DNA of 32,000 nucleotides from Candidatus Saccharimonadota bacterium. Its GTDB lineage: Bacteria; Patescibacteriota; Saccharimonadia; Saccharimonadales; UBA4665. Both the position numbers and the translations under genes were made by a program. Position 1 is the first letter of the stretch; the number at the start of each line of letters is the position of its first letter. The notes below the pieces were generated by a model. That model ran no database searches, was not told the origin of the DNA, and saw only the letters and a program-made list of their open reading frames with translations. The DNA lies in the NCBI GenBank assembly GCA_002952755.1, contig CP025011.1, positions 720,001 through 752,000 on the forward strand. The letters run 5' to 3'. Of the stretch, positions 864 to 32,000 are shown one piece after another.

Positions 864-1928
864 CTAGTAGATGAGTCCGGCAGAGCGGGATAAAACGGCG
901 CCGAGTAGGCCAATTGCCACGAGCACTATGTCGAGCAACTTATGCTTCATGATGAAGGCTTCGCCGCGAACCAGGGTTTTGTGCCAGAGTAATCCATGCC
1001 GCAAGAAGAAGATGGCGAGGCTGACGGTAGCAATTGTGCTGACAGCAAACATACTCCAAGGGGCATTGGCGCCCGAGAGTAGCTGGACGCGGGAAACATC
1101 CTTGCTGGCGACAGTTTTTGGCATACTATTAGCTGCCCCAGGCGTAGTCGTTGTGGTGTTGGTTTCGGGAGCTTTTTTAGCAGGGTTGTCGCTGCTAGCT
1201 GGCGGCGCGGCAGGGTTTGCGGCCGCACTGGGTGCGCTCTGAGCGGGAGCTGGTTGCGTGGCAGGCGTTACTGTTGGTTGATGCGCGGGTGGTGGGGCGT
1301 TAGAAGTCGCAGCTGCAACGCTGGGTTGCGGGCTGCCATATTCAGCAACGACAATTGTCTCCGGCCCGGTACCTTGGTAGTCAGGAGAATTAGCTACGCC
1401 AAAGCCGACATCTGTATACGTTGTATTGAGAATGTTGGCACGGTGCTCGGCGCTATTCATCCAAGCGGTAACCGTGGCATCGCTACTATCGAATCCGTAA
1501 GCTAGGTTTTCGCCTGCAGTCTGATAACTATAGCCAGCGGCGGTAAAGAAAGTCCAGGGCGTGGCGCCGTCGGGCGTGTTGTGCGCCCAGTAATCTCTTG
1601 CGACCATATCATTCGCTTTCGCCTGGGCTGCGCTGGCGAGCTGGTTATTCAGCGCGAGGCTGCCAAGACCATTGCTAGACCGCTGCGCGTTGGTAGTAGT
1701 AGCCAATTCAGCAATGCTCATATCAGTGGCGTAGCCGAGAACGCTTTTATGTATATTGCCCAAAAAGCTATTACAAAAAAGTCCGACGGCCACGATGGCA
1801 ATAATTGGAATATAGGGCCAATAGGTCTTCATATAGTGGTCGTTGCGCTGATGATGCTGACCGCTGCGCCGCTTGTTGTGCGGCGACTTGGTAGAGACTC
1901 GTTTTTTTGATTTTGCTGCAAGAGCCAT
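864..1928 (-). CDS. Membrane-anchored CAP/SCP/PR-1 (YkwD-like) domain protein with a P/A/T-rich linker
   Basis: CAP-domain motifs YWAHNTPDG, GENLAYGF and AWMNSAEHRANIL. Basic N-terminus plus a TM helix, a long Pro/Ala/Thr-rich region, and two C-terminal hydrophobic helices. Confidence 0.8.
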   Translation of the reverse strand: MALAAKSKKRVSTKSPHNKRRSGQHHQRNDHYMKTYWPYIPIIAIVAVGLFCNSFLGNIHKSVLGYATDMSIAELATTTNAQRSSNGLGSLALNNQLASAAQAKANDMVARDYWAHNTPDGATPWTFFTAAGYSYQTAGENLAYGFDSSDATVTAWMNSAEHRANILNTTYTDVGFGVANSPDYQGTGPETIVVAEYGSPQPSVAAATSNAPPPAHQPTVTPATQPAPAQSAPSAAANPAAPPASSDNPAKKAPETNTTTTTPGAANSMPKTVASKDVSRVQLLSGANAPWSMFAVSTIATVSLAIFFLRHGLLWHKTLVRGEAFIMKHKLLDIVLVAIGLLGAVLSRSAGLIY

Positions 1929-13280: not shown

Positions 13281-14264
13281 ATGAGGTTAGTGCGACGATT
13301 TTGGCCGTATGTCTTGTTTATCTTAATTGTTGCGGCTGGTGTTTTTCTGTTATTTGGACATGAGCAATTGTTCGACTGGATCGCAGAGCGTAACTATCAT
13401 CCAACCGCCGTGGTTCAACAGCTGACAGCAGATACGACGATGACACCGCAGGCAAAGCATCTGTTTTATGTGAACCGGCCGGTTATAGAAAACAAAGATG
13501 GTTTCAACAAGCACTGTACCAACGGCTCAGACCAAGTGTCGACTCTGGGCTGTTTTACCGGTAATCGTTTAGGTATCTACGTCTATAATGTCACCGACCC
13601 GCGCCTGGCGGGCGTACAACAGGTAACCGCTGCGCACGAGATGTTGCACCAGGCGTATGAGCGCCTTAGCCAAGCTGAAAGGACACGTATAGACGCACTC
13701 CTGCAGCACTATTACACTAGTGGGTTGACCGACCAGACCATTAGAGATCAACTACAGACATACGTTACGACCGAGCCAGGCCAGTTGACGAACGAGATGC
13801 ACTCCATCTTAGGAACAGAAGTAACTGCCTTGCCACCAGAACTTGAAACATATTACGCACGCTACTTTAATGATCGAGCCAGGGTGGCTCGGTATTATCA
13901 GCAATATCAATCAGCCTTTAACCAGCGTAACCAGCAAATTAAGGACTATGATACGCAGCTTGATAGTTTAAAAATGCAGATTGACGCCAACCGAAAAGAC
14001 TTAAGTAGCCGCCAGGCGGTCCTTCTTGGCCAACGCAATCAGCTTGACGCCTATAAGAGCAGTGGGCGGATTATCGATTATAACAATCTAGTACCAAGCT
14101 ACAATGATCTGGTGAACGCCTACCGCGGTGAAATTGACGAGACAAACAATCTCATTAATCAATACAACCAGATGCTTGGCGAGCGTAACGCGATTGCTGT
14201 GCAGGAACGTCAGTTGCAATCAGATCTCGACAGCCACGTGGTGACCAGCGCGCCAACCCAGTAG
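13281..14264 (+). CDS. Membrane-anchored hypothetical protein with an HExxH zincin-like motif and a Q/N-rich coiled-coil tail
   Basis: N-terminal TM helix (WPYVLFILIVAAGVFLLF), AAHEMLHQAY motif, and a C-terminal heptad-like Q/N/D-rich region. No family recognised. Confidence 0.6.
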   Translation: MRLVRRFWPYVLFILIVAAGVFLLFGHEQLFDWIAERNYHPTAVVQQLTADTTMTPQAKHLFYVNRPVIENKDGFNKHCTNGSDQVSTLGCFTGNRLGIYVYNVTDPRLAGVQQVTAAHEMLHQAYERLSQAERTRIDALLQHYYTSGLTDQTIRDQLQTYVTTEPGQLTNEMHSILGTEVTALPPELETYYARYFNDRARVARYYQQYQSAFNQRNQQIKDYDTQLDSLKMQIDANRKDLSSRQAVLLGQRNQLDAYKSSGRIIDYNNLVPSYNDLVNAYRGEIDETNNLINQYNQMLGERNAIAVQERQLQSDLDSHVVTSAPTQ

Positions 14265-21713: not shown

Positions 21714-22499
21714 ATGAAAAATGAACCCGCCAAGGCGGCTCAGCCCAAAAAACGAGCCGACCAATACAACGACCCTACCCATAACTACATGAAATACTGG
21801 GAGGGCCGTGAGTATGAGAATGCCTCCGAGGAGATGGCTATCAAACGATTACTGGAAGGAAAGCATTTTAAGTCTGCAGTAGACGTTGGTGGCGGCTATG
21901 GCCGCCTGTGCTTGTTACTCGAAGATTATGCAGACAAAGTAACTCTCGCCGAACCGAGCCAGCAACAGCTTGACCTGGCGAAAATTTTCCTTAAAGACCA
22001 CCCTCAGATTGACCGAAAGTTGTTGCAGGCAGAAGACCTCAAGTTTAAGGATAGTTCGATTGATCTGTTGACGATGATCCGTGTCATGCATCACTTGCCA
22101 GACCCAAGCCCGGAATTCGCCGAGATTGCCCGCGTACTGTCCGATGACGGGTTCGCTATCATTGAGGTTGCCAATTATACACATGCCCGCAACCGCCTGA
22201 AACACATCGTCAAAGGTAAAAAGATGCCAACCGAGCCAGTGGATATTCGTTCCGCCATTCACAAGAAGAAAGATGAAATTCCGTTTGTAAATCACAACCC
22301 CCATACGGTCATTAAGCAATTGGCACATGCCGGCCTTAAGGTGGATCGCATCCTGTCGGTCTCAAACTTGCGCAGCACGGGGCTGAAAAAGATTATGCCA
22401 AAGAGCATGATGTTGGCCATTGAGGGCATTCTGCAGCCTACATTAGCTGGCAGCTTCTTCGGGCCGAGCGTATTCTTTTTAGTGCGCAAAGGGCAATAA
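21714..22499 (+). CDS. Class I SAM-dependent methyltransferase
   Basis: Motif I VDVGGGYGRL, and a post-I acidic residue in VTLAEPS. Typical Methyltransf_11/25 layout. Substrate unknown. Confidence 0.75.
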   Translation: MKNEPAKAAQPKKRADQYNDPTHNYMKYWEGREYENASEEMAIKRLLEGKHFKSAVDVGGGYGRLCLLLEDYADKVTLAEPSQQQLDLAKIFLKDHPQIDRKLLQAEDLKFKDSSIDLLTMIRVMHHLPDPSPEFAEIARVLSDDGFAIIEVANYTHARNRLKHIVKGKKMPTEPVDIRSAIHKKKDEIPFVNHNPHTVIKQLAHAGLKVDRILSVSNLRSTGLKKIMPKSMMLAIEGILQPTLAGSFFGPSVFFLVRKGQ

Positions 22500-22514
22500 A
22501 ACGATGGTGGGCGG

Positions 22515-23021
22515 ATGGAACAGCTAAATTCTGAGCCATCTCCCAACGAGTACAATCATCTGTACGAACGTTTAATGAGCGATGGCTCACATTTTGCGAA
22601 TCCACTCCATTTATACCTGGGAGAAGTCGGCGAAAACGCATGTGAATACGAGTTCCCTCCCGGCATACATGATCAGGTTATGCCCCCTTCTATACCGAGC
22701 GATGTACTTATCGGCTGCGGCATCCATCCCTTTTTTAAAGAGCAGAGCATCATAACAATTGAGTACACTATTGGACTGCCCGACGCACACCTGGCACTCT
22801 CTGCTTACATTTTCTTTGGAAGTAAATTTGCCATAGCCGCGACGACATATGAAGGCTATTTCGATAGGCGACAGCCGGTTACAGAGCTTTTTCAGAATAT
22901 TATGTATAACATGTCGTTTTTTGATGTGTCTGGAAGACTACGTCCGACCCCTTATGCTGGACTGGTACGGTACGTCAACCTGGCATTTGAACAACGGTGG
23001 ATAGTACGCGGCGACGACTAG
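22515..23021 (+). CDS. Hypothetical protein (no recognisable domain)
   Basis: 168-aa ORF packed tightly between the methyltransferase gene and recG. No motif recognised. Confidence 0.5.
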   Translation: MEQLNSEPSPNEYNHLYERLMSDGSHFANPLHLYLGEVGENACEYEFPPGIHDQVMPPSIPSDVLIGCGIHPFFKEQSIITIEYTIGLPDAHLALSAYIFFGSKFAIAATTYEGYFDRRQPVTELFQNIMYNMSFFDVSGRLRPTPYAGLVRYVNLAFEQRWIVRGDD

Positions 23022-23041
23022 CCTGTATACTGTGAGACATC

Positions 23042-25078
23042 ATGCTAATCGCGAACGATCTGACGGCTATAAAAGGTGTGGGGCCGGAGCTCGCACGCAA
23101 GTTCGGCATACTCGGCATCCATAGTATTCAAGATCTGATTATGCATTTTCCGCGGCGCTACGAAGACTATTCGACGCTTACGCCTATTCGGCATATGCGG
23201 CCAGGGCAGGTAAGTGTCCAGGCAGTTATTACACAAGTAAGCGGCCGCTATGTCCGTCGAGGCATGCATATTACTGAAGCTGTCGCCTCGGACGCAAGCG
23301 ACAGTGTGCGCCTTATTTGGTTCAACCAGCCGTACCGGGCTGGGGCACTCAAGATAGGACGGGAGTATTTTATTTCTGGTAATTACGCGCTGAGCCGCCA
23401 ACGATTTGCCATCATGAACCCAAGCGCCGAGCTGGTAAGCGATTTCCCGATTAGCACTGCACGCATTGTACCCATCTACCGCGAAACAAAAGGTTTGACG
23501 AGCGTGCAGATCCGTCGTGTGTTGCGCGAGATTGTTCCTCGGCTCCGTGCGGTTCCGGAGTCGCTTCCGCCGTGGCTCGTAGACGAGCAGCAGCTTATGC
23601 CGTATGCTGCCGCCCTCGAGACTATCCATTTTCCTGAAACGAGCAATATGCTGGAGATGGCTAAAAAACGATTGGCCTTCCAGGAGGTGTTTGAACTAAG
23701 CCTGGCTGCCCTGCTCAACAAATACGAATTATTACAGGATACGTCACTGGCAATCTCCTTTAACGAAGCGTTGGCGCGCCAATTTGTTGGCCATCTGCCA
23801 TTTACGCTCACTGACGCCCAGCGCAAAGTCGTGTGGCGCATTTACCAGGATATGCAAAAAACGCAGCCCATGAATCGACTAGTAGAAGGTGATGTTGGCT
23901 CGGGTAAAACGGTAGTTGCCACTATGGCCGCCTTGATGCCGCTTAGCGAAGGTTATCAGGTGGCGCTTATGGCACCTACCGAGCTGCTTGCCCGCCAGCA
24001 CGCTGATACGATCTACAAACTTCTTACCCCTCTAGGGATGCACGACAAGCTTGCCCTACTAGTCGGTGGTATGAAAGTGGTAGAAAAAGACCGTGCGCGG
24101 GAAGCAATTGCCTCCGGCGTCGCCCAACTCATTGTTGGTACCCAAGCACTCATTCAGGAAAAAGTCGATATGTATAATCTGGCGCTGGTAGTCATTGATG
24201 AGCAGCATCGCTTTGGTGTTGAGCAGCGCAAAAAATTAATGTCTAAGGCTGGACACATGCCGCACTTGCTGAGTCTCACTGCTACTCCTATTCCACGTTC
24301 GCTGGCGCTGACCTTATACGGCGAACTGGATGTCTCGTTGCTTGATGCAAAGCCGCCCGGGCGACTGCCGATTATCACCGAAATCTGTTCGCCGAATTCC
24401 CGGGCACAACTTAACAAGAAGATCGAGCAAGAACTTATTGCCGGCCGCCAAATGTTCGTGGTGTGCCCACTTATTACCGAATCTACTACCAGCAAGGCAA
24501 ATGCTGCCGAAAAAATATATGAGCAGTTTCGCACCAAAGACTTCAATAAGTGGCGCGTTGGCTTGCTACACGGCAAGATGAAACCGGCCGAAAAGAACGA
24601 TGTCATGCAAGCGTTCGTCGACCACAGGCTGGATATTCTCGTGAGCACTACTGTCATCGAAGTGGGGGTTGATGTGCCAAACGCTTCAGTAATGCTCATC
24701 GAAGCGGCAGATCGTTTTGGCTTAGCGCAAATACATCAACTACGAGGGCGGGTTGGGCGTGGCGGTCAGCAGGGCTATTGCTATTTAATGATGAGCGACT
24801 CTAGCAAGCCCCCGCGTCGGCTCGCAGCTCTAGAGCGCAGCAATGACGGCTTTAAGCTCGCCGAGTTAGACCTGGAGCTGCGCGGCCCGGGAGCTATCTA
24901 TGGCACCATGCAACATGGCGCGCTGGATCTGCAAGTTGCCAAACTAACCGACATCCACTTGATTGCTGCCGCCCGCCAGGCGGCGGAACAATTTATCGCT
25001 AGAGACGAAGATTTGTTACAATATACGCAGCTGTTCGAACGGGTCACGCAGTTGCGGGCCGTAACTAACCTAAACTAA
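23042..25078 (+). CDS. recG: ATP-dependent DNA helicase RecG
   Basis: N-terminal wedge/OB region. Helicase motifs GDVGSGKT, DEQHRFG, TATPIPR and QLRGRVGRG. Confidence 0.95.
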   Translation: MLIANDLTAIKGVGPELARKFGILGIHSIQDLIMHFPRRYEDYSTLTPIRHMRPGQVSVQAVITQVSGRYVRRGMHITEAVASDASDSVRLIWFNQPYRAGALKIGREYFISGNYALSRQRFAIMNPSAELVSDFPISTARIVPIYRETKGLTSVQIRRVLREIVPRLRAVPESLPPWLVDEQQLMPYAAALETIHFPETSNMLEMAKKRLAFQEVFELSLAALLNKYELLQDTSLAISFNEALARQFVGHLPFTLTDAQRKVVWRIYQDMQKTQPMNRLVEGDVGSGKTVVATMAALMPLSEGYQVALMAPTELLARQHADTIYKLLTPLGMHDKLALLVGGMKVVEKDRAREAIASGVAQLIVGTQALIQEKVDMYNLALVVIDEQHRFGVEQRKKLMSKAGHMPHLLSLTATPIPRSLALTLYGELDVSLLDAKPPGRLPIITEICSPNSRAQLNKKIEQELIAGRQMFVVCPLITESTTSKANAAEKIYEQFRTKDFNKWRVGLLHGKMKPAEKNDVMQAFVDHRLDILVSTTVIEVGVDVPNASVMLIEAADRFGLAQIHQLRGRVGRGGQQGYCYLMMSDSSKPPRRLAALERSNDGFKLAELDLELRGPGAIYGTMQHGALDLQVAKLTDIHLIAAARQAAEQFIARDEDLLQYTQLFERVTQLRAVTNLN

Positions 25079-25084
25079 GGAACC

Positions 25085-25909
25085 ATGTACTCTGGTACCA
25101 CATTAACGCCTTTATCAGGCCGCGTCCTTGGCGCACATCAGAAGATCGATCGCTTGGCGCGCACATCTCTCAAAGCATTTTTGAGCAAGAATAACTTATT
25201 CCCTTCGAGTAAACTCATCTTACATTTTGAGGGTATCAATGGCCCCGATGCCATCAAACGCAAAAGCCCAGCTCACGACGAGCCATGGCACTTTTATACA
25301 CCCTTCAACGATGACGATCACGAACTACCGCACATTATCGGCGGCCACTACGACGCGCTAGTTGTAGCGTTAATCGCCAAAGACGAAACCCGCGCCGCTT
25401 TTGAGGCGTCGTGGCTGGCTCATGCCATTGTCGATGGCCTCACGCCCGCACACCACTATCCGTACGAAGCTAAGTTGGAGGAGCTGCGTGGCGAAAGTAT
25501 GGAAACTCGTAATACCATTAAGGACAAATTGCTACTTCCTGGTGAAACACGGCGTCAGCAGGTGAGTAACAACTGGAAAATGTGGGGTCCAAAAGGTTTG
25601 TTTGTCTCGCATAGTATGTTTGAGTTTGGTGTGGCGATCCTTGCTTTACCAATGTCGACTGAACGTGCCATTCCCACCGAAGAAGATATCATCGAGTTAC
25701 ACGAATATGGGGTACTGGAACTGTTCCGGCGCAAAGCGAAAGAGATTGCTGCGTTGGGCATGTATGATCGGTACCAAAAGTTGGGTTGGACACCTGCACT
25801 GGCTATGGAAACCCGCCAGAAACTCCTGCCGGTCATTATTAGGATGGTTATCCTGGCGTGGTATGGTGCGTCGATTGATGCCGGGATCGCAAAAGAAGGC
25901 AGAGCGTGA
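25085..25909 (+). CDS. Hypothetical protein, possibly of the zinc-dependent phospholipase C / P1-nuclease fold
   Basis: HAIVDGLTPAH (H-x3-D-x5-H with Pro before the last His) resembles the metal-ligand motif HYLGDVNQPMH of Bacillus PC-PLC. Other His/Asp clusters are present (SPAHDEPWH). SD AAGGAA upstream. Its stop overlaps the rsmD start. Confidence 0.6.
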   Translation: MYSGTTLTPLSGRVLGAHQKIDRLARTSLKAFLSKNNLFPSSKLILHFEGINGPDAIKRKSPAHDEPWHFYTPFNDDDHELPHIIGGHYDALVVALIAKDETRAAFEASWLAHAIVDGLTPAHHYPYEAKLEELRGESMETRNTIKDKLLLPGETRRQQVSNNWKMWGPKGLFVSHSMFEFGVAILALPMSTERAIPTEEDIIELHEYGVLELFRRKAKEIAALGMYDRYQKLGWTPALAMETRQKLLPVIIRMVILAWYGASIDAGIAKEGRA

Positions 25910-26436
25910 GAATTATTGCTGGCCGCTTGAAGGGGCGTCAATTTGATTCACCGGGTACTCATCGTACTCATCCTATGAGCGATAAGATGCGCGGTGCCCT
26001 TTTTAACATCCTGGGTGATATAGACGGTTTAACAGTCCTTGATGCGTTTGGCGGCAGCGGAGCACTTAGTTTCGAGGCTCTCAGCCGCGGAGCTAAACAT
26101 GCAACGATTATCGAAAACGATGCATCCGCCACGCGTACCATCGAGCAAAATAGCAGAGAGCTGGGACTTAAGAATAACCTAAAGCTTGTGCACGCGTCGG
26201 CCAATAACTGGCTACTTACAACTACCGGTGCCAAGTTCGACATCGTCATCTGCGACCCGCCTTACGGCGATTTACAGATAAACACGCTGCGCAACCTGGC
26301 AGCGCGCATCACGCGGCCAGGTATTTTCGTATTGTCATATCCTGGTCACGAAGAGCCGCCGTCATTTCCGGAACTAGTTTCTATCAAACAGCAACAGTAT
26401 GGCGATGCTCAGCTTATTTTTTATCGTCACTCATAA
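25906..26436 (+). CDS. rsmD: 16S rRNA (guanine966-N2)-methyltransferase RsmD
   Basis: RIIAGRLKGR, HPMSDKMRGALFNIL, LDAFGGSGALSFEALSRGA and the DPPY catalytic motif. The GTG start overlaps the upstream stop (GTGA). Confidence 0.9.
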   Translation: MRIIAGRLKGRQFDSPGTHRTHPMSDKMRGALFNILGDIDGLTVLDAFGGSGALSFEALSRGAKHATIIENDASATRTIEQNSRELGLKNNLKLVHASANNWLLTTTGAKFDIVICDPPYGDLQINTLRNLAARITRPGIFVLSYPGHEEPPSFPELVSIKQQQYGDAQLIFYRHS

Positions 26437-26484: not shown

Positions 26485-26568
26485 GCGCGAGTGGTGAAAT
26501 GGTAGACACGCTAGTTTTAGGAGCTAGTGCCGTAAGGCGTGGAGGTTCAAGTCCTCTCTCGCGCACCA
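26485..26568 (+). tRNA. tRNA-Leu (anticodon UAG), class II, CCA encoded
   Basis: Hand-folded. Acceptor GCGCGAG/CTCGCGC. D arm GTG/CAC with GG in the loop. Anticodon stem CTAGT/GCTAG with loop TT-TAG-GA. Long variable arm TGCCGTAAGGCGT. T arm GGAGG-TTCAAGT-CCTCT. Discriminator A followed by CCA. Confidence 0.95.
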
Positions 26569-26672
26569 ACATCTGATTCAAGATATAAAAGCTCCCGCAT
26601 AGGGAACGCTTTTTTATTTGATTAGAATTTCTAATCAGTTGCGTGTATTCAAGCTCTCTTAATTGCGATTAT

Positions 26673-26681
26673 TGATACAAT
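26673..26681 (+). promoter_or_regulatory. Extended -10 box (TGaTACAAT) of the cupin gene
   Basis: TGATACAAT lies 8 nt upstream of the ATG at 26690. The identical nonamer precedes hisS. Confidence 0.5.
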
Positions 26682-26689
26682 GGGACATT

Positions 26690-27040
26690 ATGAAAGACAT
26701 CACTGGTAAATTTTCGCTCGATGACGCTATTTTTTTCGATGCAGGCGGCTTTATGGGACAGGAGTATATAACCCGAGAGCAGAAGGCAGGCTTTAATGCG
26801 CTGCTCGTGACCGTGAAGGATCATCATCCTCGTAAACGTATGGTCGGCGCTACCCGATGCTACTTTGTGGTCGAAGGCTCGGGCGTCTTTATATTGGATG
26901 ATCAACCACATGAGGTAAGGATCGGTGACTTATTCGTTATCACGCCAGGGCATGAATACGAATATCACGGCACTATGAAGCTATTTGAGGTCAACGTATC
27001 TCCAGATAATACTTTCAAGGATGAAATTTTGGGGCAATAG
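26690..27040 (+). CDS. Cupin-domain protein
   Basis: Cupin beta-barrel pattern CYFVVEGSGVFILDDQPHEVRIGDLFVITPGHEYEYHG. Start set to the ATG at 26690; the track start at 26663 is a TTG upstream of the -10 box. Confidence 0.75.
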   Translation: MKDITGKFSLDDAIFFDAGGFMGQEYITREQKAGFNALLVTVKDHHPRKRMVGATRCYFVVEGSGVFILDDQPHEVRIGDLFVITPGHEYEYHGTMKLFEVNVSPDNTFKDEILGQ

Positions 27041-27188
27041 GGTACTCATATCCGGCCAAGTCATCATCGATCACAATTTCTCCGCCACGATATACAAAGT
27101 CAAGCGTAACAAGGAATTAGTATAGTAACTTACTGGCAGCACATATATGCTGTGAAAAGGCAATAATTATGCTAAAATTAACGTAATT

Positions 27189-27722
27189 ATGTGTAGAGAA
27201 TCCGATGCAGTCTCACGGTTACGAACACTATCAGATGATCTTCTAGATCTCCATATTGCCATGGAACGTCAGGGCCATCATGGGCATCATACCTATGGTC
27301 GCCTGATGAACTACGCTGGCAGCTCATTGCTGGTACTCGCCAAATCATATGGTCCTCAGGCGGTGCTTGTAGAATTTGTAAAGCCAGACATGCCCGAGGA
27401 CAGTGTGCTAGAAGATCGGGTAGTATATCTGCCGGTGAGTAGGGATGAGGTTCATGTGCTGGGTTCAACTCGCCGTCCAGATGTTACTATGACCGCCTTG
27501 ACTCAAGAAGTGTACGGTAAAACATTTGAGCGAGAGCCTGTATCGGTCGACAGGGAGAGAGTAGGCATAGAGGAAATAGATTTTGTTGTCGATTTTTTCC
27601 GCCACCCCGCTAATGATGTGCTACTTTCCCGATATAGCCCCAAAGGCATTGGGGAAAGATTAGGATACGTAGAAACTGTCGATCTTGGCAACCTGCCGCT
27701 CCCACATTTAAAAGACGACTAG
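27189..27722 (+). CDS. Hypothetical protein (no recognisable domain)
   Basis: 177-aa ORF. TGcTAAAAT (27170-27178) lies 10 nt upstream of the ATG. His-rich patch QGHHGHH. Confidence 0.5.
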   Translation: MCRESDAVSRLRTLSDDLLDLHIAMERQGHHGHHTYGRLMNYAGSSLLVLAKSYGPQAVLVEFVKPDMPEDSVLEDRVVYLPVSRDEVHVLGSTRRPDVTMTALTQEVYGKTFEREPVSVDRERVGIEEIDFVVDFFRHPANDVLLSRYSPKGIGERLGYVETVDLGNLPLPHLKDD

Positions 27723-27989
27723 CCTCATGACGTCCGTTGGCTCAAGTTGTGTACCCGAATATATCAGGGGACGCTCCTGTGGACGGACAGGTTTATGCGG
27801 ACTGAGGTATCGCCCCAGTCGCATCTGCTATATCGGGCATCATCGGTAGGTGGTCGGATGGGCCACGCCTGCTAAGATTTGTGGAGTCTTCCAATAGCTC
27901 CCGGGTGGCCTGAGTACCCCTTTTCAGCTTGTCGAAAAAAGTTATCTTAACGTCTGTAATGGTGCACCATGTGATAATTACAAATATGT

Positions 27990-28024
27990 AAAAAGACGTC
28001 CAATCTTTGGCGTCTTTTTATTTT
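27990..28024 (+). terminator. Rho-independent (bidirectional-type) terminator
   Basis: AAAAAGACGTC (27990-28000) pairs with GGCGTCTTTTT (28009-28019), 11 bp including one G-U, around an 8-nt loop, followed by ATTTT. It lies about 270 nt after the nearest upstream stop codon. Confidence 0.7.
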
Positions 28025-28108
28025 GAGTGCTAAGAGGCGACAGAGTATAGGTGTCCAGGCTAAAGAATAGTTATTTACTATAAGTGTGCGTTATGGTACA
28101 CCAAGGTT

Positions 28109-29101
28109 ATGAGTATTACTGCAGAACTAGGGGTGGTTCATGCGGAGCAAGAAGGTAGATTACATGATCATGCGTACGACATCTTACGTCGATCTTTGGG
28201 GGCTGCAGGTGAGTTTGAGGATTATTCTCAGGCGCAGGCCATGCATCTCGTGGGGAAACTTCGCGATTTTTTCTTAGAAGAATTTGACGCCCTACCTGAG
28301 TCCCGCTTGGCTGAGATGCGGAAAATCAGTGAGGTTGCCATGCGTTATGCCGCGGGCGAATCGATACCATCTATAGCTGATGATATGTACAGAGGTGCCC
28401 CGCGTAGAGTTCACTTTGATATAGGAACAATGACCTCCAGAATCTTTAGGAGAAACCAGGACGGCTACGGAGGGAATCTCCTCCAAGCTCTTACGGAAGA
28501 GCCACTTGAGCGGAATGACTTCGATCCAAGTCGGATCGAAAAACCGCAGCCTACTACCTTCGGGCTGGTGGCTCCAAAATCATCAATTGTCACGACTGCC
28601 GCACCAAAACGCGAGACTACCGACTCTTGCGTTGTCTCAGCAAGCAAAAAACAAGTCCAAACGACTACTCAGCGTATAACCCCTCCTACGTTGGAAGCGC
28701 CCCAGCCACTTACCAGCCATCAGCTTATACTCGCAAAAGCCATACTGTACTTGTGTAATGACAATGGAAAGTTCGACGTAAGAGGTGCAAAGTGTATCAC
28801 GGATCCCGAGGCTATGTATGTCGAAGGAGCAGCGCAGAACAAGGCAAAAATGATCTGCATGGCATGCCCCATTATAGCAACATGCTTAGCAGATGCCCTC
28901 TTAAGTGAATACGCTGAGGGGTACAGCTATGGAGTCCGAGGTGGTATGACAGCCCGCCAGCGCAGGAAATTCTTAAAAATGACAAGAGAGCCAAAGGCCT
29001 TTGCCGAAGAAATCTTGTCTGGCCGACTATCGGCAACGTCCGATACTTCTAAAGCAATCGATGGGCAACTTAAGTCGACTAGCCATATGTTTCGTGCGTG
29101 A
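28109..29101 (+). CDS. WhiB-like (Wbl) Fe-S domain protein with a long N-terminal extension
   Basis: The C-terminal region C-ITDPEAMYVEGAAQNKAKMI-C-MA-C-PIIAT-C-LADALLSEYAEGYSYGVRGGMTARQRR has the Wbl pattern C-Xn-C-X2-C-X5-C plus a G[VI]WGG-like turn (GVRGG) and a basic tail. About 230 N-terminal residues have no clear family; RYAAGESIPSIADDM loosely resembles a sigma region 4 / LuxR HTH. Confidence 0.8.
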   Translation: MSITAELGVVHAEQEGRLHDHAYDILRRSLGAAGEFEDYSQAQAMHLVGKLRDFFLEEFDALPESRLAEMRKISEVAMRYAAGESIPSIADDMYRGAPRRVHFDIGTMTSRIFRRNQDGYGGNLLQALTEEPLERNDFDPSRIEKPQPTTFGLVAPKSSIVTTAAPKRETTDSCVVSASKKQVQTTTQRITPPTLEAPQPLTSHQLILAKAILYLCNDNGKFDVRGAKCITDPEAMYVEGAAQNKAKMICMACPIIATCLADALLSEYAEGYSYGVRGGMTARQRRKFLKMTREPKAFAEEILSGRLSATSDTSKAIDGQLKSTSHMFRA

Positions 29102-29422
29102 ACCAACCTCAAATAGTGTTAACGCTTAGCCTTCAAGGAGGAACTAACTAGGTCAGGTAAGACGTGAGATCACTAGTGGTCAATTTCTAGTTTGCAGACT
29201 GCCCACTGCATGATCATACGGCTAGTAAGTATCGTATGTCATAAGCGGATGTGCTCCGTTCGGGAAGCTGCCAGCCTTCTGTACCTAGTGCGCTGATCAC
29301 TAATGATAGAAATCTACCTACCCGAGAACGCTAAACGGCAAGCCGAAATCGTTCGCCAGGATTGTAGCGATTAGACCAGTATCGGGCAAGTGAGGAGAGG
29401 CTATAAATATATGCTTATTATC

Positions 29423-29431
29423 TGATACAAT
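29423..29431 (+). promoter_or_regulatory. Extended -10 box (TGaTACAAT) of hisS
   Basis: TGATACAAT at 29423-29431. Here a 23-nt gap containing AAAGGAA precedes the ATG at 29455. Confidence 0.5.
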
Positions 29432-29454
29432 CTAGCTAAAGGAACCGAAGAGAC

Positions 29455-30765
29455 ATGGCACTATCTACCCAACCTTATAAAGGCGCGCGCGATTTTTATC
29501 CTGCTGATAAGCGCCTGCAGAAGTATATGTTTGATATTATGCGCAAGGTGAGCGAGTCGTTTGGGTACGAAGAATACGATGCGCCAATTATTGAATCTCT
29601 GGACCTCTATCTGGCTAAAACCGGCGAAGAGATCGTGAACGAGCAAACCTACACTTTTACTGATCGCGGCGGCAGGCAAGTAGTTATCCGGCCTGAAATG
29701 ACACCTACGGTAAGTCGTATGGTAGCGGCTAAACGGCAAGAATTGGCTTATCCGCTGCGTTGGTATTCTATTCCTAACCTCTGGCGATATGAGCGGCCAC
29801 AGCGTGGACGGTTGCGCGAGCACTGGCAGCTTAATGTCGACATTTTTGGTGTCGATAATTTGCTGGCTGAAGCCGAAGTGATTCAGGTAGCCGACGGCAT
29901 ACTAAAAGCCGCGGGGGCCACGCACGACATGTATACCATTCACCTAAATAGCCGCAAGCTGATGGATTTTATCTTCAGAGAATATTTGGCGCTTGATGGT
30001 GTGCAGGCGCACACTGTCGCTAAGCTCATCGACCGCATGCATAAAATGCCTCCGGCGGCATTTGCGGCAGAAGTGGATGCTGTATTTACGCCCACACAGC
30101 GGGACGAAGGTGCGAGCGACAAGCTCATTGATCTACTACAGACCAAGAGTATTGCACGCTTACCGGAAGTTGTACGTCAGGATAGTTCGGCGCTTGAGTT
30201 GCAACAGTTGCTTCAGGTGCTGAGCAATGCTCGCATTACAAATGTCATGTTCGACCTCACGGTGATGCGTGGGTTTGACTACTATACGGGCATCGTCTTC
30301 GAAATCTTCGATGAGAATCCTGATAATAACCGTTCGATGCTGGGTGGTGGTCGCTATGATGGATTGGTGGGACTGTTTGGTGTAGAGCCTGTGCCGACAG
30401 TAGGTTTTGGTTTTGGTGACGTCACTTTACAGAATTTTATCGAAGGGCACAAACTCTTGCCGCCACCGCGTCCTGATACCGACTTATATGTGGTGCTCAT
30501 TGGCAACGTCTTTACCGAAGCACAGAAAATTGTCGCTGATATGCGCGAAGCTGGTGTGAATGTGGCTATCGATATCAGCGGTGCCAAACCGGATAAGCAG
30601 CTGAAGACTGCTGTCAAGAAAGCTATTCACTACGTGATGTTTGTCGGGGAAAAAGATTTACGCGACGAACAGTATGAAATCAAAAATCTCACGACCGGCA
30701 TCTCCGAGCGTCACAGCGCTGCCCGTATTGTGAGTATCGTCAAAGATTACCGCGGCGACGAGTAG
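29455..30765 (+). CDS. hisS: Histidine--tRNA ligase
   Basis: Class II motifs: RDFYP, RPEMTPTVSRM, RWYSIPNLWRYERPQRGRLREHWQLNVDIFG and GGGRYDGL. C-terminal anticodon-binding domain. Confidence 0.92.
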   Translation: MALSTQPYKGARDFYPADKRLQKYMFDIMRKVSESFGYEEYDAPIIESLDLYLAKTGEEIVNEQTYTFTDRGGRQVVIRPEMTPTVSRMVAAKRQELAYPLRWYSIPNLWRYERPQRGRLREHWQLNVDIFGVDNLLAEAEVIQVADGILKAAGATHDMYTIHLNSRKLMDFIFREYLALDGVQAHTVAKLIDRMHKMPPAAFAAEVDAVFTPTQRDEGASDKLIDLLQTKSIARLPEVVRQDSSALELQQLLQVLSNARITNVMFDLTVMRGFDYYTGIVFEIFDENPDNNRSMLGGGRYDGLVGLFGVEPVPTVGFGFGDVTLQNFIEGHKLLPPPRPDTDLYVVLIGNVFTEAQKIVADMREAGVNVAIDISGAKPDKQLKTAVKKAIHYVMFVGEKDLRDEQYEIKNLTTGISERHSAARIVSIVKDYRGDE

Positions 30766-30833
30766 CTCTTATTAGCCAGCTGCTCCTTACTGAGTCTGGC
30801 CAAACCGCTTCTAATCTGTTACAGTCAGTCACT

Positions 30834-32000
30834 ATGCAAGTCACTAAAAAGAATTTATCTGATACTAAAGTACAACTAATCTTGGCAGCCGATGCCGAGT
30901 TACTCCAAAGCGCGAAAGAAGAAACATTAAAAGAGTTTGCTAAAAACGCCAAGGTACAGGGCTTCCGCGAAGGCAAAGCGCCCCTGGCCATGGTCGAAAA
31001 GCAGGTCGACCCGGCGCGCCTGCAGACTGAGTTTATCGAGCATGCTATGAACCGGCTTTACGCCGCAGCACTCGATCAAGAGCGCCTGCGTCCCGTGGAG
31101 CAGCCTAAGGTCAAGGTGACTAAGTTTGTACCTTTCGACACCCTAGAGATAGAAGCTGAGGTGTCGATCGTGGGCGATATCTCACTGCCCGATTACAAAA
31201 AGGTGAAGATCGCAAAAGAGAAGGTGGCCGTTACCGCAAAGGATGTCGACGCTGTTATTGCCGACTTGCGGGCTCGTGAAGCCGACAAAAAAGATGTAGA
31301 CCGTGCGAGCAAAAACGGCGACATGGTGGTTATCGATTTTAAGGGCACCGATGCCAAAACCAACGAAGCGATCGCTGGTGCCGATGGTAAAAACTACCCG
31401 CTTAGCCTTGGCAGCAACACTTTTATCCCCGGCTTCGAACCAGAACTGCTGGGCCTGAAGGCCGGCGAAGAGAAGACCTTTACGGTCACGTTCCCGAAAG
31501 ATTACGGCACCACTTCACTCCAAAACCGCAAGGTAACTTTTGCAGTAAGTGTCAAGAAAGTTCAAGAGGCAACCGAGCCTAAACTCGACGACGCCTTTGC
31601 CACCAAAGTCGGCCCCTTTAAAACGGTCGCTGAGCTGAAGGATGATATTAAAAAAGAGCTTGCGAGCCGCAAAGAGCAGCAAAACGAGCAAGCGTATGCC
31701 GACGAAGTAATTACTAAGATTACCGAAAAGGCTAAGGTAGCTATTCCTGACGTGCTCATCGACGAGCAGGTTGAGCGTATCGAGCGTGATCTGCGCCAGG
31801 ACCTTATGTACCGGGGCCAAACCTGGCAGGAGTATCTCAAGGCAGAGGATCTTACCGAGGAAGCCTACCGCAAGAAGCAGCGGCCTACTGCCGAGATGCG
31901 CGTCAAGGCCGGCCTGGTCTTAAGCGAAATCTCCGAAAAAGAAAAGATCGACCTTAGCGCTGAAGAGTTGGATGCTCAGATAGCTCAACTCAAGGCACAA
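30834..32000 (+). CDS. tig: Trigger factor (partial, continues beyond the window end)
   Basis: My own translation from the ATG at 30834 stays open to nt 32000 (389 codons). N-terminal ribosome-binding region (GFREGKAPLAMVEK) and FKBP-type PPIase (GDMVVIDFKG...FIPGFEPELLGLKAGEEKTFTVTFP). Absent from the ORF track because no stop codon falls in the window. TGtTACAGT lies 8 nt upstream of the ATG. Confidence 0.9.
   Translation, partial: MQVTKKNLSDTKVQLILAADAELLQSAKEETLKEFAKNAKVQGFREGKAPLAMVEKQVDPARLQTEFIEHAMNRLYAAALDQERLRPVEQPKVKVTKFVPFDTLEIEAEVSIVGDISLPDYKKVKIAKEKVAVTAKDVDAVIADLRAREADKKDVDRASKNGDMVVIDFKGTDAKTNEAIAGADGKNYPLSLGSNTFIPGFEPELLGLKAGEEKTFTVTFPKDYGTTSLQNRKVTFAVSVKKVQEATEPKLDDAFATKVGPFKTVAELKDDIKKELASRKEQQNEQAYADEVITKITEKAKVAIPDVLIDEQVERIERDLRQDLMYRGQTWQEYLKAEDLTEEAYRKKQRPTAEMRVKAGLVLSEISEKEKIDLSAEELDAQIAQLKAQ

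What the first reader, a model, noticed from the sequence alone, without database searches (positions are those of the whole stretch)
28109..29101. WhiB-type Fe-S domain at the C-terminus of a 330-aa protein in a non-actinobacterial-looking genome
Residues of about 230-300 carry the full Wbl signature: Cys, then DPE, then C-X2-C-X5-C, then GVRGG in place of GVWGG, then a basic tail. Wbl proteins are regarded as restricted to Actinobacteria and their phages and are normally about 80-130 aa. Here the domain follows about 230 aa of unrelated sequence, which includes a segment loosely resembling a sigma region 4 / LuxR HTH (RYAAGESIPSIADDM...TSRIFRR). Canonical Wbl proteins act by binding region 4 of the primary sigma factor, so a fusion to such a module would be a notable Rosetta-stone arrangement. 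That reading of the N-terminus is weak. The gene lies in the accessory segment next to tRNA-Leu, with long non-coding DNA on both sides. If the host genome is a Saccharibacteria-type epibiont of Actinobacteria (inference), acquisition from the host or its phages is an obvious hypothesis.
Basis: partly seen in the sequence, partly recalled or inferred. Interest (0 to 1): 0.65.

Follow-up and report, generated by a model that had tools for sequence, protein, structure and literature searches.

The report
WhiB-type iron-sulfur regulator in a Saccharibacterium
A soil Saccharibacterium, from a group that lives attached to Actinobacteria, carries an intact 330-residue gene whose C-terminus is a complete WhiB-like iron-sulfur domain, a family published as exclusive to Actinobacteria and their phages. 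Its N-terminus is a rare module found in only one other protein, which is also a WhiB fusion.

Summary
ORF 28109-29101 (+) encodes 330 aa. Residues 231-287 hit Pfam Whib (46.5 bits, cut-off 23.6) and residues 227-300 match a solved WhiB4 chain (E=4e-13). All four Cys, DPE and the basic tail are present, and GVRGG replaces GVWGG.

The contig is Saccharimonadales. The gene lies in a variable slot between tRNA-Leu and hisS and is missing from that slot in 80 relatives. Three independent assemblies are 100% identical, so it is not a frameshift.

The N-terminus is coding. It has an in-frame codon signal, and residues 68-128 are homologous (E=2e-7, z=10.5) to the N-terminal extension of P0113. P0113 is a 195-aa protein from a 1.12-Mb contig with non-actinobacterial features, and its Wbl domain belongs to the WhiB2 class. 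The same module is therefore fused to two different Wbl classes.

The sigma region 4/LuxR reading has no statistical support. The nearest Wbl cores are chromosomal actinobacterial WhiB4/WblA genes at about 55% identity, so the transfer was ancient and the gene has since taken on the low GC of its present genome.

Best reading: a horizontally acquired Fe-S, sigma-associated regulator with a new architecture. It is a new variant of a known kind, of moderate to high interest. Function, the organism's own sigma factor and the distribution across Patescibacteria are untested.

The parts
26485..26568 (+). tRNA-Leu (anticodon TAG). It is the conserved left border of the variable slot.
   Evidence: ARAGORN and Rfam tRNA at 56 bits. 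It is 83-93% identical in relatives. Two independent contigs break inside it.
26569..29454 (.). Variable accessory slot between tRNA-Leu and hisS. It holds a cupin gene, orf177 and the Wbl gene.
   Evidence: Both flanks are syntenic with L001-L010 at 68-78% identity, but the slot contents are unrelated. The slot is about 180 bp in L004 and 2-5.3 kb elsewhere. Slot GC is 0.467 against 0.513 for core genes, and GC3 is 0.43-0.49 against 0.51-0.59. No att-like repeat and no integrase were found.
26663..27040 (+). Small cupin-domain gene, an island passenger. It is called as 116 aa from ATG 26690 in the other assemblies.
   Evidence: Pfam Cupin_2 E=8e-6, just below the cut-off. Gene call in L090/L091.
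27189..27722 (+). orf177, an orphan island passenger with a marginal resemblance to a conserved beta' segment.
   Evidence: No Pfam, NCBIfam or PHROG hit. In-frame codon score +0.152 bits/codon. 25% identity to RpoC residues 382-458, pairwise E=3e-4.
27989..28020 (.). Hairpin followed by a T-run, 89 nt upstream of the Wbl start. It looks like a terminator separating orf177 from the Wbl gene.
   Evidence: Inverted repeat I3 with 15-nt arms, 87% complementary. Sequence read directly. The consensus terminator scan did not flag it.
28109..29101 (+). The complete gene for the 330-aa Wbl-domain protein. ATG 28109 is preceded by ccAAGGtt. The frame is closed upstream by TAA at 28061-28063.
   Evidence: It is 100% identical in L090, L091 and L092. 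The chance of 205 stop-free codons is 5e-5.
28109..28483 (+). N-terminal all-helical domain (residues 1-125). No known family.
   Evidence: AF2 on this segment alone gives pLDDT 70.2 and pTM 0.58, with helices 3-33, 41-58, 64-81, 86-94 and 99-120. In-frame codon score is +0.113 bits/codon, with the other five frames negative.
28310..28492 (+). Conserved core of the N-terminal module (residues 68-128; motif RYAxGxSxxxIAxDxYxG...DI...YxGxL), shared with P0113.
   Evidence: BLASTP on the N-termini alone gives 29.5% identity over 61 aa ungapped, E=2e-7. Smith-Waterman z=10.5, and 0 of 5000 shuffles reach the score. Full-length HSP E=3e-13.
28484..28723 (+). Linker rich in T, P, Q and S, predicted disordered (residues 126-205).
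   Evidence: AF2 pLDDT is below 50 over residues 98-200. Composition. Still coding: +0.125 bits/codon in frame.
28724..29008 (+). Wbl domain with its pre-Cys helix (residues 206-300). Cys codons are at 28793-28795, 28856-28858, 28865-28867 and 28883-28885. GVRGG is at 28931-28945. The basic helix follows.
   Evidence: Pfam, PDB, alignment A1. AF2 pLDDT 62-85.
29009..29098 (+). C-terminal tail (residues 301-330). Not conserved.
   Evidence: No alignment beyond about residue 315 in any hit.
29455..30765 (+). hisS, the conserved right border of the slot and the taxonomic anchor.
   Evidence: Pfam tRNA-synt_His. 577 relatives found; the best 80 are almost all Saccharibacteria MAGs.

Best explanation
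This is a real, intact accessory gene of a soil Saccharimonadales bacterium, and its product has three parts. The first is a helical N-terminal module of about 125 aa that belongs to no known family. Its core (residues 68-128) recurs in only one other known protein, P0113, which is also an N-module plus Wbl fusion. The second is a disordered linker of about 80-100 aa. The third is a complete WhiB-like [4Fe-4S] domain nearest the actinobacterial WhiB4/WblA class.

The Wbl domain came ultimately from Actinobacteria or their mobile elements. The transfer was old and the domain has since taken on the composition of its present genome. The gene now sits in a strain-variable slot next to tRNA-Leu.

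Inferred mechanism: the four Cys hold an O2/NO-labile [4Fe-4S] cluster. The cluster-proximal surface (F222, M236, Y237, with R277 replacing the usual Trp) docks on region 4 of a primary sigma factor in RNA polymerase holoenzyme. The basic helix after the beta-turn lies along upstream DNA. The flexibly tethered N-terminal module supplies an extra contact with DNA or protein, and so provides specificity that Actinobacteria supply in trans or through short tails. The result would be redox- or NO-responsive transcription control inside the epibiont.

Shown here: gene reality, architecture, homologies, genomic setting and taxonomy. Inferred: cluster binding, the sigma contact and the role of the N-module.
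For: Wbl membership by sequence.

The gene is real: three identical independent assemblies call a 330-aa gene. The N-domain and linker have an in-frame codon signal (+0.11 and +0.13 bits/codon) while the intergenic DNA scores -0.4 to -0.6. P(open frame)=5e-5.

The N-module is conserved at protein level in a second fusion protein from another genome. That proves it is translated and functionally coupled to Wbl domains. P0113's Wbl domain is WhiB2-class (E=9e-31 to 8dy7_H), whereas the query's is nearest WhiB4. The module is therefore combined with two Wbl classes.

The host is Saccharimonadales and the slot is variable.

The closest cores sit in 70-76% GC contigs with whiB4/wblA-type neighbours. 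All phage and plasmid hits are actinobacterial.

All invariant Wbl columns, and 12 of 15 nearly invariant ones, are kept despite about 50% divergence, which argues for purifying selection.

The published aromatic-patch rule asks for at least 2 aromatic residues including AP2 or AP3, and WhiB4 itself has Leu at AP2 (PMC13013590). F222 and Y237 satisfy that rule.
Against: There is no expression or biochemical data. The protein is a singleton in about 15 billion proteins. AP4 Trp is replaced by Arg in the beta-turn that contacts sigma. The organism's own rpoD was not available. In the only two rpoD genes seen beside related long Wbl proteins, the His-Pro pair needed for Wbl binding is replaced (K-H in L093, R-P in L087). 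Canonical docking on the epibiont's own sigma is therefore not assured. Codon adaptation is lower than in core genes. The N-module has no recognisable fold or family.
Confidence: 0.55

Rival explanations
1. Host-directed factor. The epibiont makes a Wbl-domain protein that acts on the sigma-A of its actinobacterial host, as actinophage Wbl proteins do, to reprogram host transcription. The N-module and long linker would serve delivery or targeting.
For: Cultivated Saccharibacteria grow on Actinobacteria (PMC10633639 abstract). Phage Wbls bind host sigma-A4 in a His516-dependent way (PMC13013590). The two sigma factors encoded next to the related long Wbl proteins lack the His-Pro pair, which would leave the host's sigma as the canonical partner. 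P0113's Wbl part closely matches Streptomyces WhiB over 82 aligned residues (E=9e-31). The gene is strain-variable accessory DNA.
Against: There is no signal peptide or TM segment and no secretion-system gene in the island. Exporting a folded Fe-S protein is difficult. AP4 W->R weakens the canonical interface. The host of this soil lineage is unknown. The window organism's own sigma was not examined.
Confidence: 0.1
2. A functionless or decaying passenger. A horizontally acquired gene is drifting in a hotspot and is not under selection in this genome.
For: It is a singleton. It is absent from the same slot in 80 relatives. Its codon score (0.07 bits/codon) is lower than that of core genes (0.17-0.43). 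It has long non-coding flanks and a neighbouring orphan, orf177, that may be a decayed rpoC fragment. It carries the W->R change in the hallmark turn.
Against: The open frame of 330 codons is intact. All four Cys and every invariant Wbl column are retained at about 50% divergence. The N-module is conserved with P0113. All three parts have the same GC3, which indicates long residence as one gene. The sequence is identical in samples from at least two studies.
Confidence: 0.15
3. A non-transcriptional Fe-S or thiol-redox protein, for example a protein disulfide reductase or cluster carrier as was once proposed for WhiB proteins, with the N-module acting as a substrate adaptor.
For: The Cys motif is retained while the sigma-contact Trp is lost. 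No DNA-binding family is detectable in the N-terminus.
Against: All structurally characterised Wbls act through sigma-A4 (PMC13013590, PMC6954389). The basic helix after the turn is kept.
Confidence: 0.1
4. Artefact: a frameshift fusion of two genes, a chimeric or contaminant contig, or a short canonical Wbl gene starting at an internal codon with a spurious upstream extension.
For: The ORF list is mechanical, and one gene caller chose TTG at residue 30, giving 301 aa.
Against: Three assemblies are 100% identical. Both flanks are syntenic with Saccharimonadales. GC is 0.49, not 0.7. The upstream 205 codons carry an in-frame coding signal. The only internal starts near the domain are TTG codons without an SD sequence. 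The N-module plus Wbl fusion recurs in P0113.
Confidence: 0.02

Closest known systems
WhiB4 / WblA / WhcA class of actinobacterial Wbl proteins (e.g. M. tuberculosis Rv3681c; PDB 7f7n)
   Same: It is the best sequence match for the core: E=4e-13 to 7f7n_A, and 52-55% identity to metagenomic orthologues that sit in the PBP / 2x ArsA-ATPase / YjgF / MerR / Crp neighbourhood. It has the same C-x20-C-x2-C-x5-C spacing. AP2 is a non-aromatic hydrophobic residue (M236 against L45) followed by an aromatic AP3 (Y237 against F46). The basic helix after the turn is present.
   Different: 330 aa rather than about 100-125 aa, with a 205-aa N-terminal extension. GVRGG replaces GVWGG. There is a 4-residue insertion before the turn (EYAEGYS). 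The whiB4 synteny is absent. The host is Saccharimonadales. It is not an orthologue.
P0113 (195 aa; ENA ERZ25039491 contig_50194, 1.12 Mb, 54% GC)
   Same: It is the only protein found that shares the N-terminal module (query 68-128 to P0113 23-83, E=2e-7). It has the same order of parts: module, linker, Wbl domain.
   Different: Its Wbl domain is WhiB/WhiB2-class (E=9e-31 to S. venezuelae WhiB) with a canonical aromatic patch and GIWGG. Its linker is about 30 aa, not about 80-100. It lacks the query's first 67 residues. It sits between a P-type ATPase gene and polA, not in a tRNA-adjacent slot.
P0013 (439 aa; same sample, contig_12865, 140 kb, 52.5% GC)
   Same: It is another long protein with a C-terminal Wbl domain of WhiB4-like type. 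It shares the pre-Cys helix (A[KR].IL..Y...G.FD.RG..C), is 41% identical over 99 aa, and is sister to the query in an NJ tree.
   Different: Its 335-aa N-terminus is not detectably related to the query's (E about 1; the module HMM is negative). It has GVWGG. It is chromosomal, between alaS and an ftsA-like gene.
Actinophage and actinobacterial-plasmid Wbl proteins
   Same: They are mobile Wbl genes, known vehicles for Wbl transfer, and some have extensions.
   Different: They are more distant from the query (28-52% identity, best E=4e-9), and none covers the N-terminus. There is no relative in 2.9 million IMG/VR contigs.

Membership tests
Wbl (WhiB-like) family, Pfam PF02467 | Profile-HMM match above the curated threshold | tested here: met
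   46.5 bits against a cut-off of 23.6, E=5.5e-12, residues 231-287. 670 Wbl hits at E<=1e-3 in the representative library.
Wbl (WhiB-like) family, Pfam PF02467 | Four conserved Cys (C-xn-C-x2-C-x5-C) able to ligate a [4Fe-4S] cluster | tested here: met
   C229, C250, C253 and C259 align with the four Cys columns of 38 homologues. Actual cluster binding cannot be tested with these tools.
Wbl (WhiB-like) family, Pfam PF02467 | Gly-rich beta-turn G[V/I]WGG | tested here: inconclusive
   The turn is present as G275-V-R-G-G. The Gly and Val residues are invariant, but Trp (AP4) is Arg. That state is shared by only 4 other cores of 147.
Wbl (WhiB-like) family, Pfam PF02467 | Aromatic patch AP1-AP4 for sigma-A4 binding (at least 2 aromatics, at least 1 at AP2/AP3; PMC13013590) | tested here: met
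   AP1 = F222, which aligns with the Trp of P0113 and WhiB. AP2 = M236, like L45 of WhiB4. AP3 = Y237. AP4 = R277. That gives two aromatics including AP3. The criterion is met by sequence only.
Wbl (WhiB-like) family, Pfam PF02467 | Basic segment or helix after the turn | tested here: met
   T281, R283, R285 and R286 are invariant or nearly invariant columns. The sequence is RQRRKFLKMTR.
Wbl (WhiB-like) family, Pfam PF02467 | Small single-domain protein (about 75-130 aa) | tested here: not met
   330 aa, with 205 aa preceding the domain. The extension is coding.
Wbl (WhiB-like) family, Pfam PF02467 | Restricted to Actinobacteria and actinobacteriophages (as published: PMC13013590) | tested here: not met
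   The contig is Saccharimonadales by HisRS identity and flank synteny. Its GC is 0.51, against 0.70-0.76 for the nearest actinobacterial loci.
Wbl (WhiB-like) family, Pfam PF02467 | Binds region 4 of the primary sigma factor via its His-Pro loop | not testable with these tools
   The organism's own rpoD is not in the window or the fetched loci, and no multimer prediction was available.
WhiB4/WblA orthologous class | Closest sequence class among characterised Wbls | tested here: met
   PDB E-values: WhiB4 4e-13, WhiB(2) 2e-6, WhiB3 5e-3, WhiB1 8e-3, WhiB6 0.07, WhiB7 0.1.
WhiB4/WblA orthologous class | Conserved neighbourhood (PBP, two ArsA-type ATPases, YjgF, Crp), as seen around the nearest hits | tested here: not met
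   The neighbours here are tRNA-Leu, a cupin gene, orf177 and hisS. The nearest hits do have that neighbourhood.
Sigma-70 region 4 / LuxR-GerE HTH (for the N-terminal segment) | Significant profile, sequence or structural match to a region 4 or GerE HTH | tested here: not met
   Pfam gives none at E<=10. PDB phmmer and the two-sequence profile give none. Foldseek against PDB and BFVD gives none. Shuffle p = 0.011, 0.13 and 0.19 against three sigma region 4 sequences. One 21-aa local match to the L087 RpoD region 4.2 (E=0.003) is not reproduced with canonical sigma factors.

The most novel reading that the evidence does not exclude
Small-genome bacteria that live on Actinobacteria have repeatedly captured host Wbl domains of at least two classes and fused them to their own N-terminal module. 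This created a lineage-specific family that either rewires the epibiont's transcription to the same redox/NO cues as its host, or is delivered to the host to hijack sigma-A as phage Wbls do. The replaced His-Pro loop in the two sigma factors encoded beside the related fusions leaves the second possibility open.
Probability: 0.12. Interest if true: 0.85.

Novelty: new variant of a known kind. Interest (0 to 1): 0.6.

Why it matters
Current literature describes Wbl proteins as exclusive to Actinobacteria and their phages (PMC13013590, 2026). A complete, apparently selected Wbl domain in a Saccharibacterium is a concrete counter-example, and Saccharibacteria are a lineage whose cultivated members live on Actinobacteria. 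It would also be a marker of gene flow from host to epibiont.

The same rare N-terminal module is attached to two different Wbl classes in two genomes. That points to a functional coupling which could show what a Wbl domain needs in order to work outside Actinobacteria. Regulators of Patescibacteria are almost unknown, so a redox/NO-sensing, sigma-tethered factor would be a testable entry point.

The natural W->R change in the hallmark turn, together with the sigma factors that lack the His-Pro pair, offers a natural experiment on the published sigma-binding mechanism.

Tried and rejected
1. Sigma region 4/LuxR HTH in the N-terminus: rejected for lack of support.
2. Frameshift, chimera or contaminant: rejected.
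3. A short Wbl gene from an internal start with a non-coding upstream extension: rejected by the codon-usage log-odds, the open-frame probability, the lack of an SD sequence at internal TTGs, and the P0113 homology.
4. Recent phage or plasmid origin: phage and plasmid Wbls are more distant than chromosomal WhiB4-class genes, and there is nothing in IMG/VR.
5. Integrative element with att sites: no repeat of the tRNA 3' end and no integrase in the slot.
6. Regulatory RNA or promoter and terminator signals in the long flanks: Rfam finds only the tRNA, and consensus scans are at chance level.
7. Enlarging the N-module family: a two-sequence HMM against all held proteins and six-frame translations of about 1.9 Mb of loci found nothing. 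Two metagenome scans and one viral scan also found nothing beyond the query and P0113.
8. Homologues of P0013: none.
9. Foldseek on the full-length AF2 model: uninformative, because the disordered linker dominates.
10. Naming the organism behind L087 and L093: not achieved. There are no tRNAs, no genes shared with the Saccharimonadales loci, and no names in the cluster tables. Only indirect non-actinobacterial indicators were found.
11. The look-up of encoding contigs on the 301-aa gene call: not on record.
Full report
**1. Observation**

The window has an ORF at 28109..29101 (+) of 330 codons. Pfam Whib (PF02467) matches residues 231-287 at E=5.5e-12 and 46.5 bits, against a gathering cut-off of 23.6. 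PHROG WhiB families match the same stretch. phmmer against all PDB chains gives WhiB4 (7f7n_A) at E=4e-13 over residues 227-300. The other characterised classes follow at much weaker E-values: WhiB 2e-6, WhiB3 5e-3, WhiB1 8e-3, WhiB6 0.07 and WhiB7 0.1.

In a 39-sequence alignment the query keeps every invariant column (A246, C250, C259, L264, V276, G278, G279, T281, R283, R285). It also keeps 12 of the 15 nearly invariant columns, and all four cluster Cys (C229, C250, C253, C259).

The deviations are as follows:
- F->Y at residue 237
- V->I at residue 255
- E->A at residue 282
- a 4-residue insertion before the turn
- GVRGG instead of GVWGG, a state found in only 5 of 147 extracted Wbl cores including the query

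tRNA-Leu(TAG) is at 26485-26568.

**2. Is the gene real, and is the N-terminus translated?**

A codon log-odds model was trained on 14 confident genes of the window. It gives +0.113 bits/codon for residues 1-125, +0.125 for the linker (126-205) and +0.003 for the Wbl domain itself. The other five frames are negative in every segment. The two flanking intergenic stretches score -0.39 to -0.89 in all frames.

The frame is closed by TAA at 28061-28063, and ATG 28109 follows ccAAGGtt. The only in-frame starts near the domain are TTG codons at residues 195 and 215, without an SD sequence. The chance of 205 stop-free codons is 5e-5.

The exact HisRS of the window occurs on three Logan contigs from runs SRR34954208, SRR34954209 and SRR9952756. 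All three are 100% identical to the window over 26540-32000 or 28499-32000, and the gene is called there as 330 aa.

Most decisively, residues 68-128 are homologous to residues 23-83 of another protein, P0113. The match is 29.5% identity over 61 aa without gaps, with pairwise E=2e-7 and Smith-Waterman z=10.5, and 0 of 5000 shuffles reach the score. The full-length BLASTP alignment runs through both the module and the Wbl domain at E=3e-13. Frameshift, chimera and short-gene explanations are therefore excluded.

**3. Organism and genomic setting**

HisRS finds 577 relatives in GTDB genomes. The best 80 (60-87% identity) are almost all labelled Saccharibacteria, Saccharimonadales or Patescibacteria.

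The window's flanks (22000-26115 and 29420-32000) align to the closest relatives at 68-78% DNA identity, and the tRNA-Leu is conserved. The interval between tRNA-Leu and hisS, however, differs in each genome. It is about 180 bp in L004 and 2-5.3 kb of unrelated cargo elsewhere, including a patatin, a DUF6282 amidohydrolase, an aminotransferase and large unknown proteins.

tblastn of the 330-aa protein against all 80 loci (1.31 Mb) finds nothing. Two of the independent contigs begin inside the tRNA gene, as expected if the population varies at this junction.

The slot has GC 0.467 against 0.513 for core genes. Its three genes have GC3 of 0.43-0.49, below every core gene (0.51-0.59). The three parts of the Wbl gene have the same GC3 (0.46-0.48), which fits a long history as one gene.

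No att-like repeat or integrase is present. The rest of the window is ordinary housekeeping: PilB, L19, RNase HII, PepN, NusA, ClpC, RadA, PBP1A, TyrRS and RecG. Downstream lie tig, clpP, rpoB and rpoC.

**4. Relatives of the Wbl domain**

An exhaustive phmmer search of 1.84 billion cluster representatives gave 670 hits at E<=1e-3. Every one of the 150 listed aligns only to residues about 210-315, apart from the protein itself.

The word-indexed search with the domain alone returned 100-121-aa WhiB proteins at 49-55% identity. Their contigs have 70-76% GC. Their gene order is a large upstream gene, whiB, two ArsA-type ATPases, YjgF, MerR, a metallo-beta-lactamase-fold gene and a Crp-like gene. 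From my own knowledge this is the whiB4 (Rv3681c)/wblA neighbourhood.

tblastn against 50,697 phage genomes finds 53 hits, with 50 named actinophages, 3 unnamed 'Bacteriophage sp.' records from human faecal samples, and 28-51% identity overall. tblastn against 72,556 plasmids finds 65 actinobacterial plasmids at 32-52% identity. None covers the N-terminus. IMG/VR holds no relative.

The ultimate source is therefore actinobacterial. With at most 55% identity and host-like composition, the transfer is not recent.

**5. The N-terminal part**

AlphaFold2 on the full protein, with Wbl homologues as the alignment, gives the following:
- a helical N-domain (residues 13-97, pLDDT 54-78)
- a disordered stretch (residues 98-200, pLDDT below 50)
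- a folded Wbl domain (pLDDT 62-85)

Residues 1-125 modelled alone give pLDDT 70.2 and pTM 0.58, with five helices, but only one of the five models was confident.

Nothing identifies the fold or family:
- No Pfam hit at E<=10 other than HTH_58 at E=0.16.
- No NCBIfam hit.
- No PDB sequence hit, either for the single sequence or for the two-sequence profile.
- No structural neighbour in the PDB or BFVD.

The sigma region 4 idea was tested directly. There is one 21-residue local match to region 4.2 of the L087 RpoD (E=0.003). Shuffle tests give p=0.011 for that sigma factor and p=0.13 and 0.19 for E. coli sigma-70 and M. tuberculosis SigA region 4, whose sequences I wrote from memory. I treat the idea as unsupported.

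The pattern RYAxGxSxxxIAxDxYxG does resemble a generic helix-turn-helix signature. That is an impression by eye only.

**6. A second and a third long Wbl protein**

P0113 (195 aa) lies on a 1,121,815-bp contig (ERZ25039491 contig_50194, GC 54.4%), downstream of a dnaG-rpoD pair and between a P-type ATPase gene and polA. Its residues 112-193 match S. venezuelae WhiB residues 4-85 at E=9e-31, so it is WhiB2-class with a canonical aromatic patch.

P0013 (439 aa) lies on a 140-kb contig of the same sample (GC 52.5%), between alaS and an ftsA-like gene and near rpoD, ruvX, yceG and obg. It is WhiB4-like (E=2.5e-16). It shares the pre-Cys helix with the query at 41% identity over 99 aa and is the query's sister in a neighbour-joining tree. 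Its N-terminus is not detectably related to the query's.

The two contigs share a 950-bp IS-like element at 99% identity, so they probably belong to one genome.

Several indicators suggest that genome is not actinobacterial:
- a dnaG-rpoD operon
- a short-form AlaRS (NF002436, 660 bits against a cut-off of 529)
- an FtsA-like protein whose best match is TIGR01174, though below its cut-off
- mid-range GC
- two sigma-70-family proteins whose C-terminal loops read KLRKHKDAKKL and KLNRPGNKEIL, where primary sigma factors normally read KLRHPSRS (my own knowledge)

I could not name the organism.

Both P0013 and P0113 are singletons as far as I could see. Further candidates for Wbl proteins outside high-GC Actinobacteria are P0130 (210 aa, on a 39.6% GC contig rich in glycoside hydrolases) and P0007 (96 aa, GVRGG, on a 54% GC contig next to serS).

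**7. Mechanism**

Published structures and mutagenesis show that Wbl proteins bind region 4 of the primary sigma factor. His516 and Pro517 of sigma-A insert into the cluster pocket, which is lined by the aromatic patch: AP1-4, equal to W3, F17, F18 and W60 of WhiB1. WhiB4 has Leu at AP2, and both L45 and F46 are required (PMC6954389; PMC13013590).

In the query, AP1 is F222, which aligns with the Trp of P0113 and WhiB. AP2 is M236, AP3 is Y237 and AP4 is R277. This meets the paper's minimal criterion (at least two aromatics, one of them at AP2/AP3) but lacks the turn Trp.

I therefore infer a [4Fe-4S]-dependent, sigma-tethered regulator. Its basic helix lies on upstream DNA, and its tethered N-module adds a further DNA or protein contact. 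The same module is joined to a WhiB4-like domain here and to a WhiB2-class domain in P0113. This suggests that the module provides something Wbl domains need in general, rather than a class-specific function.

The steps that are shown are the architecture, the homology, the genomic setting and the taxonomy. The steps that are inferred are cluster binding, the sigma contact, the DNA contact and the physiological signal.

The rivals, in order of likelihood, are:
- a decaying passenger gene
- a host-directed factor that targets actinobacterial sigma-A, as phage Wbls do
- a non-transcriptional redox role

The replaced His-Pro loops in the sigma factors next to P0113 and P0013 keep the host-directed idea alive. 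However, there is no secretion signal, and the window organism's own sigma factor is unknown.

**8. Comparison with what is known, and novelty**

By sequence this is a member of the Wbl family. It fails two descriptive criteria of the family (small size and actinobacterial restriction). It is not a WhiB4 orthologue, because the synteny is absent and it has the extension and the W->R change.

Full-text searches found no paper reporting a Wbl protein in Saccharibacteria or Patescibacteria. [quoted passage not shown] Cultivated Saccharibacteria grow on Actinobacteria (PMC10633639 abstract), so gene flow from host to epibiont is a natural explanation.

I classify it as a new variant of a known kind.

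**9. Limits**

- The distribution of Wbl genes across Saccharibacteria was examined only at the syntenic locus of 80 genomes.
- Only 150 of the 670 representative-search hits were visible.
- The taxon of L087 and L093 is unknown.
- No sister alleles exist for a dN/dS estimate.
- The N-domain model rests on a single sequence.

Noticed in passing
window 27189-27722 (+): orf177 has no family hit. Its residues 10-96 resemble the conserved beta' segment '[24 protein letters not shown]' of the same organism's RpoC (residues 382-458): 25% identity, pairwise E=3e-4. The same region is hit weakly in about 45 relatives. It may be a decayed rpoC fragment, or the match may be chance.
   Followed up: partly
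window 26539-26568; L090 and L091 position 1: Two independent Logan contigs begin inside the tRNA-Leu gene. This suggests the assembly graph branches there, because strains differ in what lies on one side of the tRNA.
   Followed up: partly
L093:2797-3902 and L087:5549-6793: The two sigma-70-family genes next to the related long Wbl proteins end in ...KLRKHKDAKKLHDYIK and ...KLNRPGNKEILREFWGE. The His-Pro pair that all tested Wbls need on sigma-A4 is therefore replaced by K-H and R-P. The L093 gene is also split by an apparent assembly frameshift.
   Followed up: partly
L093:3898-4842 and L087:1084-2028: A roughly 950-bp element is 99% identical between the two contigs. It encodes a 309/317-aa protein with a weak InsA zinc-ribbon hit. 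It is probably an IS, and it links the two contigs to one genome.
   Followed up: partly
L094:6913-7545 (P0130; GCA_041691355.1 JBEPUU010000005.1): A 210-aa protein with a 120-aa N-terminal extension and a C-terminal Wbl domain. It lies on a 39.6% GC contig full of glycoside hydrolases, directly after an RNB exoribonuclease and a DEAD/SNF2 helicase. It is another candidate Wbl outside high-GC Actinobacteria.
   Followed up: no
L089:5005-5295 (P0007): A 96-aa Wbl protein with the same rare GVRGG turn, 55% identical to the query core. It lies on a 54% GC contig between msrA and serS. P0030, on a 70% GC contig, shares GVRGG, the insertion before the turn and MTARQRRK.
   Followed up: partly
P0028 (365 aa): An N-terminal Wbl domain is followed by a C-terminal stretch, 'LPESQRLALAWETEGCSPASIAKG...LESLRCGRAALKSAL', that looks by eye like ECF sigma region 4. 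Pfam reports only Whib at E<=0.1.
   Followed up: partly
window 27989-28020: An almost perfect 15-nt inverted repeat followed by TTTTTATTTT lies between orf177 and the Wbl gene. It looks like a bidirectional terminator, but the consensus scan did not flag it.
   Followed up: no
window 13281-14264, 22515-23021, 25085-25909 (+): Three ORFs in the syntenic core (327, 168 and 274 aa) have no Pfam hit at E<=1e-3. A 353-aa CAP/SCP-domain protein at 864-1928 (-) is also unusual for a small genome.
   Followed up: no
L001 (DATIJU010000026.1) and L074 (CAJCIR010000057.1): The closest relative by HisRS (87%) is deposited as 'Bacillota bacterium', and another relative as 'Chlamydiae bacterium'. Both share the Saccharimonadales locus, so the record labels are probably wrong.
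   Followed up: no
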